From a virus (lineage: Duplodnaviria > Heunggongvirae > Uroviricota > Caudoviricetes), in IMG/VR virus record IMGVR_UViG_3300033494_000001: 64,000 nt of DNA. The stretch is one strand, 5' to 3'. Within the stretch, counting starts at the first letter, position 1, and each line of letters starts with the position of its first letter. Of this stretch, positions 49,600 to 50,682 are shown piece after piece. Made by a program: the position numbers and the translations under genes. Under the pieces are notes generated by a model that did not search any database, was not told the origin of the DNA, and was given only the letters and a program-made list of their open reading frames with translations.

Positions 49600-50682
49600 T
49601 TAAAATGATTTAAGGTTTTCGGATTTATCGCTATGACTAAGTAATACTTCAGAAAATCCTAAAGTAGTATTAATCATATCAATAAAATCATATTCGCTTA
49701 GGGCTTGTATTAATTGCCCATTAATAGTCAATTGCCAATCGTGTTCTACGTGATCAAGACAAGTAATGACTAATACATCACGATGTTTGTTTAGGTATTC
49801 GTCTTTACTAACAGCATATTGTAACAAATCTAAATCCAGAATGGATATTCTAAACTCACCTTGCCATTTGTTATACACATTTGTTTCAAGAGGATTAGGT
49901 TTGATATTATGAATAAACTGTTCATTAGTCATTGGACCATTACCATGACGAGTTTGGTATGCTCTAGTTACTGCATAGCATTTAGGAGTATATCCCATTT
50001 CTAAGATATTTGTTGTTCCTACATTCGAGCGAGTAACATGTGGGAAGAATCCATAATGTTGGTCAAGAAGTAACCCTTGTGAACCTTCAAAGATATGTGA
50101 TGGAACTGATGGCAAAACAGTGTACATTTTAATTCGAGCATGTGTAGTGATAAAGTCTATTGCTTTACGAAACTCAATATTATTAGCTGTACAAAGATAA
50201 AATTCTTCCATTAAACCATATTTGATATCAAATACAGTTTTATTGAATAAATCTTCAAATAACAATGAATGATACGCTTCTTCTCTGCGTTTAGTGGAGC
50301 CTACACCTGTGCCACATGTTCCATTTTTTGCATCCATACTTTGATTATACTGCTTATCCAATGGAGTAGTTACTGGACATTTTGCATGGATATGCAAAAT
50401 AGGACGAATTCCTTTCTGTTCCAATACTTTCAATTCATTATAGATACCAACAGGATCAACTGTACAATATTGTGACCAATAAGTCGGGGCTCCATTTAAA
50501 GAACCTGATCCAAAATTGGAAAAAATATGTCGAAGTTCATCTTTTACAACGGTATGACCTGCTTGTTGACCTCCTGAATATCGGATTATTGCAGCATTTG
50601 GATTTTGAAGAGAAAGGTAGTTTGTTACTAATCCTTTCCCTTCATCTCCAAATTCTATGCCTATTACAGCTTTTGCATTCAT
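49600..50682 (-). CDS. short divergent adenylosuccinate synthetase homolog (PurA/PurZ family)
   Basis: P-loop GIEFGDEGKG, YSGGQQAGHTVV (catalytic His context), CGTGVGSTK, FEGSQGLLLDQHYGFFPHVTRSN, AYQTRHGNGP all align with PurA; 360 aa versus ~430 for bacterial PurA; the Asp-binding RRRR loop is replaced by GEFRISILD. Confidence 0.75.
   Translation of the reverse strand: MNAKAVIGIEFGDEGKGLVTNYLSLQNPNAAIIRYSGGQQAGHTVVKDELRHIFSNFGSGSLNGAPTYWSQYCTVDPVGIYNELKVLEQKGIRPILHIHAKCPVTTPLDKQYNQSMDAKNGTCGTGVGSTKRREEAYHSLLFEDLFNKTVFDIKYGLMEEFYLCTANNIEFRKAIDFITTHARIKMYTVLPSVPSHIFEGSQGLLLDQHYGFFPHVTRSNVGTTNILEMGYTPKCYAVTRAYQTRHGNGPMTNEQFIHNIKPNPLETNVYNKWQGEFRISILDLDLLQYAVSKDEYLNKHRDVLVITCLDHVEHDWQLTINGQLIQALSEYDFIDMINTTLGFSEVLLSHSDKSENLKSF

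What the first reader, a model, noticed from the sequence alone, without database searches (positions are those of the whole stretch)
49600..50682. Short PurA homolog with an altered aspartate-binding loop: PurZ-like candidate for 2-aminoadenine DNA or a novel nucleotide product
The P-loop, catalytic His context, GTG loop and IMP-binding segments are conserved. The protein is ~70 residues shorter than bacterial PurA, as archaeal PurA and phage PurZ are. The conserved basic GRRRRTGWLD loop that binds aspartate is replaced by GEFRISILD. PurZ enzymes divert dGMP toward the Z base, 2-aminoadenine. Altered substrate loops here could mean a different acceptor or donor. No DatZ or MazZ partner is obvious within this window.
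Basis: partly seen in the sequence, partly recalled or inferred. Interest (0 to 1): 0.75.

Follow-up and report, generated by a model that had tools for sequence, protein, structure and literature searches.

The report
vWA-coupled PurA-like enzyme, not PurZ
The gene is a real but highly diverged relative of adenylosuccinate synthetase; it is not the PurZ enzyme that makes 2-aminoadenine DNA, but the enzyme of a widespread, apparently uncharacterised small operon (small protein, von Willebrand-A protein, PurA-like enzyme) found in hundreds of large phages and bacteria, whose substrate and role are unknown.

Summary
The ORF (49600-50682, minus strand, 360 aa) is real and has the adenylosuccinate-synthetase fold. 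The PurZ reading fails. The protein keeps Asp13, which is Ser in all phage PurZ/PurZ0. It scores 45 bits against a PurZ cutoff of 300. It falls in its own clade (bootstrap 100/100), and no DatZ or other Z-cluster homolog was found.

It is not an ordinary PurA either. It scores 112 bits against a cutoff of 402, the aspartate-binding Thr/Arg loop is replaced, and three of the four IMP 5'-phosphate ligands are changed. The catalytic residues and the guanine-specifying Asp333 are kept.

The new result is context. In 85 of 85 phage loci with upstream DNA, and 77 of 80 bacterial loci, the gene follows a MIDAS-type vWA protein. A ~120-aa helical protein usually precedes that, with overlapping stops and starts.

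In Flavobacteriales the trio sits inside NrtR-linked NAD+/ADP-ribose operons. In phages it often sits in tRNA arrays.

The vWA partner and an optional acidic micro-peptide share an N-terminal Met-Gly...aromatic motif.

Most likely it is a GTP-dependent 6-oxopurine ligase that works in a complex and uses a nucleophile other than free aspartate. I found no description of it in the literature I could search.

The parts
49600..50682 (-). PurA-like enzyme (360 aa). Adenylosuccinate-synthetase fold. Asp13, Lys16, His41, Gln224, Thr239 and Asp333 retained. Family signature Gln38, Cys129, His273, Gln301, Cys331. Aspartate loop replaced.
50683..50802 (-). Optional acidic micro-ORF (39 aa, MGNIQYQSTSLEELGQTETPVEETAEVQVEEVVEETAAE). 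Its stop TAA directly abuts the PurA-like ATG. Its N-terminal motif is the same as that of the vWA-like protein.
   Evidence: similar micro-ORFs in 7 other loci matching the motif, plus a looser match in L004; background motif frequency 0.8%
50830..51723 (-). vWA-like partner (297 aa). Has the MIDAS motifs DVTGS and TIGDE, a GGGGGN loop, an invariant N-terminus MGxGxYS..R..R and a hydrophobic C-terminal tail. Lies directly upstream of the PurA-like gene in 85/85 phage loci with upstream DNA.
51723..52091 (-). Small conserved, probably helical protein (122 aa; invariant Arg21, Arg30, Arg44, Glu47, Asp65, Pro68). Its stop overlaps the vWA-like start by 1 nt. Present in 63/88 phage loci and 77/80 bacterial loci.
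48797..49585 (-). DUF7873 protein (262 aa), 14 nt downstream of the PurA-like gene and probably co-transcribed here. Found within 10 kb in only 5 of 88 phage loci, so it is not a conserved part of the module.

Best explanation
The gene encodes the catalytic subunit of a self-contained cassette: a small helical protein, a MIDAS-type vWA protein, sometimes an acidic micro-peptide, and the PurA-like enzyme. The cassette moves as a unit among large tailed phages and bacteria.

Shown: the fold is that of adenylosuccinate synthetase. The residues that bind GTP, transfer its gamma-phosphate to the 6-oxo group of a purine and deprotonate N1 are near-invariant (P-loop, Asp13, Lys16, His41, Gln224, Asp333). 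The residues that hold the two carboxylates of L-aspartate (Thr300, Thr301, Arg303, Arg305) are replaced by a different, equally conserved set. So are three of the four residues that hold the IMP 5'-phosphate, including Arg143, which in E. coli PurA is supplied by the other subunit of the dimer (my recollection of the literature). The genes are ordered and spaced as a translationally coupled operon.

Inferred: the enzyme still makes a 6-phosphoryl-purine intermediate from GTP and a hypoxanthine-type nucleotide, but the attacking amine is not free aspartate bound in the canonical way. It works as a hetero-complex in which the vWA protein and/or the small protein complete or address the active site. 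The flexible Met-Gly...aromatic N-terminus shared by the vWA protein and the micro-peptide is the best candidate for what enters the remodelled site.

More weakly inferred: the biological role lies in the nucleotide economy of phage-host conflict around NAD+/ADP-ribose and RNA/tRNA damage. It does not lie in making a non-canonical DNA base.
For: - Fold and catalytic residues. Of 153 non-redundant members, Asp13 is kept in 152 (the other is an alignment gap), His41 in 153, Gln224 in 153, Thr239 in 150 and Asp333 in 149.
- Remodelled sites: Asn38->Gln 151; Thr129->Cys 123 / Val 26; Arg143 lost; Val273->His 153; Thr301->Gln 152; Arg303/304 replaced and Arg305 aligned to a gap; Lys331->Cys 148.
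- Neither PurA nor PurZ by curated cutoffs, and a separate clade with 100/100 bootstrap support.
- Obligate partners: vWA-like directly upstream in 85/85 phage loci with upstream DNA, median gap 11 nt, 84/85 on the same strand; small gene usually overlapping the vWA start by 1 nt. Intact trio in 77/80 bacterial loci.
- Among annotated phages the organism distributions of PurA-like and vWA-like hits are nearly identical.
- The partner has a vWA fold with a complete MIDAS.
- N-terminal Met-Gly in 129/136 representatives, and the same motif in the micro-peptide.
- NAD/ADPr context in Flavobacteriales: NrtR 63, Tpt1 61, NADAR 60 and ADP-ribosylglycohydrolase 54 of 80 loci, plus Macro, PARG, SIR2 and Prs-like/NAMPT-like genes. 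In Tenacibaculum the NAMPT-like gene overlaps the PurA-like stop.
- RNA context in phages: tRNA/tmRNA genes within 10 kb in 23/56 loci; TROVE in 7/88 loci, and TROVE hits in 10 Rhizobium and 6 Vibrio records, the same counts as for the module.
Against: - No biochemical data exist; the substrate and nucleophile are inferred from residue changes only.
- Aspartate could still bind in a new way. One basic residue after the Phe/Leu is kept, and Lys is frequent at position 302.
- I could not run a complex prediction, so physical interaction of the three proteins is inferred from gene order alone.
- The NAD/ADP-ribose link comes essentially from one bacterial order. Only 6 of 88 phage loci have such genes nearby, NAMPT-like genes do not track the module across phages, and the window has none.
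- In Methylococcales and cable bacteria the trio stands alone or in defence-island-like settings.
- Placement inside tRNA arrays may only reflect where accessory genes accumulate in large phages.
- The tree is neighbour-joining with few outgroups and no archaeal PurA.
Confidence: 0.55

Rival explanations
1. PurZ-like enzyme: condenses dGMP with aspartate to start dZTP synthesis, so the phage has 2-aminoadenine DNA.
For: It belongs to the same superfamily and is short like PurZ. PHROG 1211, its best PHROG hit, carries the PurZ-derived label '2-aminooxy adenylosuccinate synthetase'. A family A DNA polymerase is encoded in the window.
Against: [quoted passage not shown] It scores 45 bits against the PurZ cutoff of 300. 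PDB PurZ0 matches only at E = 6.5e-5 against 1e-21 for PurA. TM to PurZ is 0.56-0.68. It forms a separate clade. Asp333, the guanine-specifying residue in PurA (from memory), is kept. No DatZ homolog occurs in the window or in 88 loci, and the window polymerase matches DpoZ only at E = 0.006. The module also occurs in more than 500 bacterial genomes.
Confidence: 0.03
2. Ordinary auxiliary PurA: a streamlined adenylosuccinate synthetase that still uses IMP, aspartate and GTP, with host PurB finishing the job. It would boost AMP/ATP (and hence NAD+) supply during infection or NAD stress. The vWA and small proteins would be regulators.
For: All catalytic residues and the guanine-specific Asp are kept. 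The closest structures are PurA. In Flavobacteriales it sits with NAD-rebuilding genes that consume ATP (Prs-like/NAMPT-like). NUDIX genes are nearby in several phage loci.
Against: Thr300, Thr301, Arg303 and Arg305 are all replaced, and Asn38, Thr129 and Arg143 are changed, in a strictly family-conserved way. It scores 102-112 bits against equivalog cutoffs of 395-402. A simple metabolic enzyme does not explain an obligate, translationally coupled vWA protein plus small protein in 85/85 loci. Nor does it explain the shared Met-Gly N-terminal motif. Bona fide canonical PurA genes also occur in phage-collection records and cluster with E. coli PurA, not with this family.
Confidence: 0.2
3. Non-metabolic NTPase partner of the vWA protein, analogous to MoxR-vWA chaperone pairs or to metallochaperone GTPases that I recall sharing PurA's broader P-loop class. 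GTP hydrolysis would drive remodelling or loading of a target (for example ADP-ribosylated proteins or an RNP), and no purine chemistry would be involved.
For: vWA/MIDAS proteins are described as peptide-binding co-chaperones of NTPases (PMC7824862, PMC9503650). Iyer et al. list vWA 'chaperones' in ADP-ribose-countering clusters. The top vWA structural matches include NorD of the NorQ-NorD complex.
Against: Residues specific to purine chemistry rather than to GTP binding are essentially invariant across 153 members: Asp13 (N1 base), His41 (acid) and Gln224 and Thr239 (IMP contacts). That is hard to explain for a mere switch.
Confidence: 0.1
4. Anti-phage defence or superinfection-exclusion effector. 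On a trigger sensed by the vWA/small proteins, the enzyme drains GTP/IMP or makes a toxic or signalling nucleotide.
For: Bacterial copies in cable bacteria, Desulfamplus and Methylococcales lie next to toxin-antitoxin genes, a Roc-COR NTPase, a UvrD-like helicase, BrxC/D-like ATPases and a restriction enzyme. The window copy lies about 1.3 kb from a phage Ter cluster, which has been proposed to act against superinfection (PMC7824862).
Against: No PADLOC model matches significantly. Most members are in lytic-type large phage genomes at a conserved position. In Flavobacteriales it sits in an apparently conserved, NrtR-linked cluster rather than a variable island.
Confidence: 0.1

Closest known systems
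Adenylosuccinate synthetase PurA (PF00709; TIGR00184 / NF002223)
   Same: Same fold (Foldseek TM 0.75-0.81). Same P-loop, Asp13, Lys16, His41, Gln224, Thr239 and the guanine-specifying Asp333. So the first half-reaction is probably the same: GTP-dependent 6-phosphorylation of a 6-oxopurine nucleotide.
   Different: About 25% identity and 70 residues shorter. Fails the equivalog cutoffs (112 vs 402 bits). The aspartate loop (Thr300, Thr301, Arg303-305) is replaced. Asn38, Thr129, Arg131, Arg143 and Lys331 are changed, and Val273 is an invariant His. It always comes with a vWA protein and a small protein.
PurZ / PurZ0 (N6-succino-2-amino-2'-deoxyadenylate synthase of Z-genome phages; NF038379)
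   Same: A short, phage-borne member of the same superfamily. It is often given the same database label (PHROG 1211).
   Different: PurZ has Ser in place of Asp13 and sits in a Z cluster with DatZ/MazZ/DpoZ or DutZ/DmtZ (PMC12884076). This family keeps Asp13, has no such neighbours, shares about 20% identity with PurZ, and forms a separate clade.
NTPase-vWA pairs (MoxR-vWA such as NorQ-NorD) and Ro60/Rsr (TROVE + vWA)
   Same: A MIDAS-type vWA protein genetically coupled to a P-loop NTPase. NorD vWA is among the best structural matches. TROVE genes and a Y-RNA-like element occur near the module.
   Different: The NTPase here is a PurA-fold enzyme with intact purine-chemistry residues, not an AAA+ ATPase. 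The vWA protein is a stand-alone ~295-aa protein with its own conserved termini and a GGGGGN loop.
ARG-centred, NrtR/WYL-regulated ADP-ribose-countering clusters (Iyer et al. 2022, PMC9503650, section 3.8) and NARP1 (Adps + Namat)
   Same: The Flavobacteriales clusters that hold the module contain the same parts: an NrtR-type regulator, ADP-ribosylglycohydrolase, phosphoesterase, Macro, NADAR, a vWA protein, and a Prs-like + NAMPT-like pair.
   Different: Those descriptions do not mention a PurA-like enzyme; the paper's text has no occurrence of 'PurA', and full-text searches for 'adenylosuccinate' with these terms did not return it. The trio also occurs without any of these genes in most phages.

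Membership tests
PurZ (NF038379, succino-amino-deoxyadenylate synthase) | Score at or above the curated NCBIfam cutoff (300 bits) | tested here: not met
   45.3 bits
PurZ (NF038379, succino-amino-deoxyadenylate synthase) | [quoted passage not shown] | tested here: not met
   GDEGKG in the window protein. Asp in 152/153 family members (the other is an alignment gap). All five PurZ/PurZ0 references have Ser (PMC12884076).
PurZ (NF038379, succino-amino-deoxyadenylate synthase) | Phylogenetic placement inside the PurZ/PurZ0 clade | tested here: not met
   In the NJ tree the family is its own clade with 100/100 bootstrap support. Limitation: a distance method, with no archaeal PurA included.
PurZ (NF038379, succino-amino-deoxyadenylate synthase) | Z-cluster partners (DatZ, MazZ/DUF550, DpoZ, or DutZ/DmtZ) in the genome | tested here: not met
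   No DatZ or phiVC8 Z-cluster homolog in the 64-kb window or in 88 related phage loci. The window PolA matches DpoZ only at E = 0.006. The rest of the genome was not available.
PurZ (NF038379, succino-amino-deoxyadenylate synthase) | dGMP + Asp + (d)ATP/GTP activity; dZ in virion DNA | not testable with these tools
   Needs enzymology and LC-MS of virion nucleosides.
Canonical PurA (TIGR00184 / NF002223 equivalogs) | Score at or above the curated cutoff (395-402 bits) | tested here: not met
   102 and 112 bits
Canonical PurA (TIGR00184 / NF002223 equivalogs) | Catalytic and GTP residues: P-loop, Asp13, Lys16, His41, Gln224, Asp333 | tested here: met
   Conserved in 149-153 of 153 members. The residue roles are from my knowledge of the E. 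coli PurA literature.
Canonical PurA (TIGR00184 / NF002223 equivalogs) | Aspartate-binding loop Thr300, Thr301, Arg303, Arg305 | tested here: not met
   Replaced by an aromatic residue, Gln, a variable residue (Glu/Lys/Asp/His) and a one-residue gap; consensus NKxQGxFRxSxLD.
Canonical PurA (TIGR00184 / NF002223 equivalogs) | IMP 5'-phosphate ligands Asn38, Thr129, Thr239 and Arg143 (Arg143 from the partner subunit) | tested here: not met
   Only Thr239 is kept. Asn38->Gln, Thr129->Cys/Val, Arg143->Pro/His/Phe/Tyr.
Adenylosuccinate synthetase superfamily (Pfam PF00709) | Pfam gathering score and fold | tested here: met
   138.5 bits against 27. AF2 model pLDDT 85.6. Foldseek probability 1.00 to more than 40 PurA/PurZ chains.
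vWA / MIDAS domain (partner protein 50830-51723) | vWA fold with the MIDAS motifs DxSxS ... T ... D | tested here: met
   AF2 model pLDDT 80.5. Best PDB matches are vWF-A3, NorD vWA and integrin beta-I domains. D.[ST]GS in 151/154 and T[IVL]GD[ED] in 153/154. Pfam itself gives no hit.
Ter system (TerC/TerD/TerF-vWA/PRTase/HAD) | Conserved linkage of the gene to Ter components | tested here: not met
   The Ter genes lie 2.7-6.6 kb away in the window, but Ter/PRTase/HAD homologs occur in at most 1 of 88 other phage loci. PRTase_3 has a different phage distribution.
Known or candidate anti-phage defence systems (PADLOC-DB v2) | Match of any module protein to a defence-system model | tested here: not met
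   No significant hit for the three proteins, phage or bacterial versions; one marginal E = 0.0075 hit for a bacterial small protein.

The most novel reading that the evidence does not exclude
The PurA-like enzyme may be a protein- or peptide-directed purine ligase. After GTP-dependent activation of the 6-oxo group of IMP (or of a hypoxanthine analogue of ADP-ribose/NAD), the attacking amine would be the alpha-amino group of the N-terminal glycine exposed by Met removal. That glycine sits on the vWA partner and on the acidic micro-peptide, both of which begin Met-Gly-x(1-6)-aromatic. The product would be an N6-(peptidyl)-adenylate, a kind of protein-nucleotide conjugate I know no precedent for. 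This would explain the loss of the arginines that hold the aspartate carboxylates, the obligate coupling to the vWA gene, the conserved, low-confidence (probably flexible) N-terminus, and the second small ORF with the same N-terminal motif.
Probability: 0.15. Interest if true: 0.9.

Novelty: new variant of a known kind. Interest (0 to 1): 0.62.

Why it matters
- **Annotation.** Hundreds of phage genes are labelled 'PurA-like adenylosuccinate synthetase' or, through PHROG 1211, '2-aminooxy adenylosuccinate synthetase'. They include those of about 200 cluster C mycobacteriophage records. The second label wrongly suggests Z-genomes. These genes are neither PurA nor PurZ by sequence criteria.
- **Size and conservation of the family.** The enzyme belongs to a compact cassette. 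Its vWA partner alone has 827 clusters at 50% identity, at least 526 phage contigs encode the enzyme, and at least 560 bacterial species carry the partner. The cassette's conservation implies an important function that I found described nowhere in the literature I could search.
- **Context.** Its placement next to NAD+/ADP-ribose-processing genes in Flavobacteriales, and inside tRNA arrays or near Ro/TROVE genes in phages, puts it in the most active current area of phage-host conflict research.
- **Testability.** It offers a concrete, testable biochemical question: what amine replaces aspartate? Tractable systems appear to exist, namely Flavobacterium johnsoniae, mycobacteriophages of M. smegmatis, and Vibrio phages.

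Tried and rejected
1. **Ter link.** The nearby TerC, vWA(TerF-like), PRTase_3, HAD and TerD cluster first looked like a nucleoside-metabolite pathway that would include the PurA-like gene. I rejected this: Ter/PRTase/HAD homologs occur in at most 1 of 88 other phage loci, and PRTase_3 has a different phage distribution. Only the Rhizobium phages share the proximity.
2. **DUF7873 as a module member.** It is adjacent here and in close relatives but present in only 5 of 88 loci.
3. **Known defence system.** PADLOC gave no significant hits.
4. **Genome-level NAD link in phages.** NAMPT-like genes are common across phages (2,026 records) and do not follow the module's distribution. Only 6 of 88 phage loci have any NAD/ADPr homolog nearby.
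5. **Promoter/terminator scan of 48.5-53.4 kb.** Counts were at chance level and uninformative.
6. **Sequence searches of the vWA-like and small proteins against the PDB.** Nothing significant. Pfam and PHROGs gave no function for them.
7. **DNA-level identification of the phage.** No near match among 50,697 phage records.
8. **A TROVE/Ro60 gene in the window** to go with the Y-RNA-like hit. None was found by tblastn.
9. **Literature.** Eight of my nine full-text searches targeted PurA-like or adenylosuccinate genes or these contexts, and none returned a description of the module. Two comparative-genomics papers that could mention it are not held and could not be read: de Souza & Aravind 2012, and Burroughs & Aravind 2016.
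10. **Structure.** A prediction of the complex was not possible with the tools.
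Full report
**1. What is there**

The window is part of a large tailed-phage genome. All its genes are on the minus strand, and GC content is 28-38%. It carries 16 tRNAs with assigned anticodons, two further tRNA-like genes and a tmRNA. It also holds a replication module with family A polymerase, DnaB-like helicase and Toprim primase, plus ClpP. No phage record matches it at the DNA level. The identical protein is on 7 metagenomic contigs from several samples.

**2. 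Superfamily membership: neither PurA nor PurZ**

- Pfam Adenylsucc_synt matches at 138.5 bits, but only over profile positions 1-329 of 416.
- NCBIfam PurA equivalogs give 102-112 bits against cutoffs of 395-402. The PurZ model gives 45 bits against 300.
- The best solved relatives are bacterial PurA (E about 1e-21). PurZ0 (7vf6) appears only at E = 6.5e-5.
- An AlphaFold2 model built on 30 family members is confident (pLDDT 85.6, pTM 0.87). It superposes best on canonical PurA (TM 0.75-0.81), and less well on PurZ, PurZ0 and DgsS (0.56-0.68).
- In a bootstrapped neighbour-joining tree of 56 sequences and 348 columns, the family forms its own clade in 100 of 100 replicates. It is separate from 7 canonical PurA and 5 PurZ/PurZ0 references. 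Mean identity is 25% to PurA and 20% to PurZ.
- Limitations: the method is distance-based and no archaeal PurA was available.

**3. Residue-level test** (E. coli numbering without Met; residue roles are from my knowledge of the E. coli PurA structural literature)

Across 153 non-redundant members from phages and bacteria, these residues are kept:

| Position | Members retaining it |
|---|---|
| Gly12, Asp13, Lys16, Gly17 | 152 each (the other is an alignment gap) |
| His41 | 153 |
| Gln224 | 153 |
| Thr239 | 150 |
| Gly274 | 153 |
| Asp333 | 149 |

- Asp13 decides against PurZ. A 2026 survey found Ser at this position in 100% of 147 phage PurZ/PurZ0 sequences (PMC12884076). [quoted passage not shown] My five PurZ/PurZ0 references all read GS(T/E)xKG.
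- The family also departs from PurA in a conserved way:
  - Asn38->Gln (151)
  - Thr129->Cys (123) or Val (26)
  - Arg131->Lys or Val
  - Arg143 lost
  - Val273->His (153)
  - Thr300->aromatic
  - Thr301->Gln (152)
  - Arg303 and Arg304 replaced, and Arg305 aligned to a one-residue gap
  - Lys331->Cys (148)
- So the phosphoryl-transfer and purine-activation core is intact. The aspartate-carboxylate site and most of the 5'-phosphate site have been rebuilt.
The statement that the IMP-binding segments are conserved is only partly correct.

**4. The decisive context: an obligate cassette**

- Directly upstream lie a 297-aa protein (50830-51723) and a 122-aa protein (51723-52091).
- The 297-aa protein has homologs directly upstream of the PurA-like gene in three distant phages. 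These are Rhizobium phage RHph_TM21B (E = 1e-46), Vibrio phage Va1 (E = 3e-61) and, interrupted by an intein, Mycobacterium phage Fludd.
- Among annotated phages the two genes have almost the same distribution. PurA-like: Mycobacterium 202, Rhizobium 10, Vibrio 6. vWA-like: Mycobacterium 201 plus 1 Mycolicibacterium, Rhizobium 10, Vibrio 6.
- Among 88 phage loci (80 from IMG/VR; at least 526 relatives exist there), every one of the 85 with upstream DNA has the vWA-like gene directly upstream. The median gap is 11 nt, many pairs overlap by 1-4 nt, and 84 of 85 are on the same strand.
- In 63 of those loci the small gene precedes it, usually overlapping by 1 nt. No other gene is present in more than 10 of 83 loci.
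- The partner has a true vWA fold (model pLDDT 80.5). Its best matches are vWF-A3, NorD and integrin beta-I domains. It has a complete MIDAS (151-153 of 154 sequences).
- The partner family comprises 827 clusters at 50% identity with E <= 1e-30.
- The Ter/PRTase/HAD cluster that lies 2.7-6.6 kb upstream in the window is a separate, already described phage system (PMC7824862).

**5. The cassette is also bacterial**

- The intact trio is present in 77 of the best 80 loci.
- In Chryseobacterium, Flavobacterium and Tenacibaculum it is embedded in a co-directional cluster. The cluster holds an NrtR-type regulator, NADAR, a 2OG-Fe(II) oxygenase, Macro, DUF4291, microbial PARG, SIR2, ADP-ribosylglycohydrolase, Tpt1/KptA and a metallophosphoesterase. 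Often it also holds a Prs-like plus NAMPT-like pair.
- Locus counts: NrtR 63, Tpt1 61, NADAR 60, ARH 54 of 80.
- In Tenacibaculum the ARH gene immediately precedes the trio, and the NAMPT-like gene overlaps the PurA-like stop.
- A Prs-like/NAMPT-like pair is the NARP1 ADPR-to-NAD+ pathway, which that paper says is occasionally bacterial.
- Iyer et al. 2022 described NrtR/WYL-regulated, ARG-centred ADP-ribose-countering clusters that include a vWA 'chaperone', but no PurA-like enzyme.
- In cable bacteria, Desulfamplus and Methylococcales the trio stands alone. There it sits beside toxin-antitoxin genes, a Roc-COR NTPase, helicases, BrxC/D-like ATPases or a restriction enzyme. PADLOC has no model for it.
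- The NAD/ADP-ribose link is therefore strong in one order but not universal. Only 6 of 88 phage loci and none of the window's genes show it, and NAMPT does not track the module across phages.

**6. A second theme in phages: RNA**

- In 23 of 56 loci scanned there is a tRNA or tmRNA gene within 10 kb, and the trio is often embedded in the tRNA array, as in the window.
- TROVE/Ro60 genes lie within 10 kb in 7 of 88 loci.
- TROVE is rare among phages (110 of 50,697 records), yet 10 Rhizobium and 6 Vibrio records match it, the same counts as for the module.
- Other recurrent neighbours are the HAD domain of 'Swiss-army-knife' RNA-repair proteins, R2K ATP-grasp, NUDIX and a metallophosphoesterase.
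- In the window, a sub-threshold Y-RNA-like (YrlA) match lies in the 1.3-kb non-coding stretch upstream of the trio (35.5 bits against a gathering score of 69, E = 1e-5). It is next to a tRNA-like element.
- These are leads, not proof.

**7. An unexplained shared N-terminus**

- The vWA-like protein has an almost invariant N-terminus. 129 of 136 full-length representatives start Met-Gly, and 126 match MG-x(1-4)-aromatic.
- Nearly all profile hits align from residue 1. Residues 1-3 of the model have pLDDT below 50.
- Where there is a gap between the vWA-like and PurA-like genes, a micro-ORF often fills it. The window's is at 50683-50802: MGNIQYQSTSLEELGQTETPVEETAEVQVEEVVEETAAE. Its stop abuts the PurA-like ATG.
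- Seven further loci have micro-ORFs of 34-70 aa beginning MG...aromatic (mostly Tyr followed by Ser/Thr), with acidic tails of 20-37% Asp+Glu. L004 has a looser version.
- The motif occurs in only 0.8% of 4,979 background small-ORF candidates.
- So two different proteins encoded immediately upstream share an N-terminal Met-Gly motif, while the enzyme they precede has lost its aspartate-binding arginines.

**8. Most likely mechanism**

- Shown: the PurA fold, an intact GTP/6-oxopurine activation core, remodelled aspartate and 5'-phosphate sites, and an obligate, translationally coupled vWA and small-protein operon.
- Inferred: the enzyme forms a 6-phosphoryl-purine intermediate and then uses an amine other than canonically bound free aspartate. 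It works in a hetero-complex that replaces the PurA homodimer, since Arg143, which I recall comes from the second subunit in E. coli PurA, is lost.
- Speculative, about 15%: the nucleophile is the N-terminal glycine of the partner proteins.
- The biological role probably lies in nucleotide-centred phage-host conflict (NAD+/ADP-ribose, RNA damage) rather than in DNA base replacement.
- Confidence: that it is not PurZ, above 0.9. That it belongs to this distinct vWA-coupled clade, about 0.9. The mechanistic picture as a whole, about 0.55.

**9. Novelty**

The gene family itself is visible in databases as 'PurA-like' and as PHROG 1211. I found no description of the cassette, its bacterial distribution, its NAD/ADP-ribose context or its distinctive active site in nine full-text searches. 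Two relevant comparative-genomics papers could not be read. I rate it a new variant of a known kind.

Noticed in passing
window 53407-57260 (minus strand): A phage-borne Ter cluster: TerC (53407-54345), a TerF-like vWA protein (54418-55041), a ComF-like PRTase_3 (55060-55929), a HAD hydrolase (55926-56618) and TerD (56685-57260). This matches the phage Ter systems with PRTase and HAD described by Iyer et al. 2021 (PMC7824862). It is not linked to the PurA-like module in other loci.
   Followed up: partly
window 53088-53186 (minus strand) and 52877-52951 (minus strand): A sub-threshold Rfam YrlA (bacterial Y-RNA-like) match (35.5 bits against a gathering score of 69, E = 1e-5) lies beside a tRNA-like gene with an abnormal anticodon loop (Rfam tRNA 37.4 bits). 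Both are in the 1.3-kb non-coding stretch upstream of the module. No TROVE/Ro60 gene was found in the window.
   Followed up: partly
window 48143-48217 (minus strand): A tRNA-like gene that ARAGORN reads with a four-base anticodon 'cagg' (Rfam tRNA 37.2 bits). It could be a tRNA with an enlarged anticodon loop (frameshift-suppressor type) or a degenerate tRNA.
   Followed up: no
window 24849-46788 (minus strand): A tRNA array with 16 assigned tRNAs, plus a tmRNA at 46453-46788 (Rfam 66.4 bits) with the predicted tag peptide GETKVITMVARRSSMRLAA.
   Followed up: no
L002:4197-5981 (Mycobacterium phage Fludd gp261): The vWA-like partner carries an intein of about 254 aa. It starts with Cys188, has the LAGLIDADG block 'LAGVYDGEG', and ends ...SSN with a +1 Cys. 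It is inserted in the strand just before the MIDAS 'IGDE' motif, and the record annotates the protein only as hypothetical. A Ser/Thr kinase gene (gp260) lies directly upstream.
   Followed up: partly
phage records (e.g. NC_041993.1, NC_054720.1, NC_070967.1): RefSeq and Pharokka-style annotations label these non-PurZ genes '2-aminooxy adenylosuccinate synthetase', the description of PHROG 1211. The label wrongly implies Z-genome chemistry for cluster C mycobacteriophages and for the Rhizobium and Vibrio phages.
   Followed up: partly
L096, L099, L136 (Chryseobacterium, Flavobacterium, Tenacibaculum chromosomes): A large co-directional cluster, probably NrtR-regulated, gathers NADAR, Macro, PARG, SIR2, ADP-ribosylglycohydrolase, Tpt1/KptA, a metallophosphoesterase, a 2OG-Fe(II) oxygenase, DUF4291, DUF6939 and a NARP1-like Prs/NAMPT pair. 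It looks like a chromosomal NAD+/ADP-ribose 'supercluster' worth studying in its own right.
   Followed up: partly
L022:16766-16841 and L085:2499-2570: ARAGORN calls tRNAs with anticodon CTA (listed as tRNA-Pyl, i.e. amber-reading) in two module-bearing phage contigs. This hints at suppressor tRNAs or stop-codon reassignment in those phages.
   Followed up: no
L003:9369-10877 (Vibrio phage Va1 gene Va1_045) and Rhizobium phage records: TROVE/Ro60-like proteins are encoded in all 6 matching Vibrio and all 10 matching Rhizobium phage records, the same counts as for the module. TROVE occurs in only 110 of 50,697 phage records overall. In Va1 it is annotated as a hypothetical protein.
   Followed up: partly
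window 19095-19649, 21489-23230, 61142-61921 (minus strand): The phage also encodes a ClpP-family protease, two adjacent calcineurin-like metallophosphoesterases and an SPFH/Band-7 protein. An SPFH protein also lies near the module in L004.
   Followed up: no
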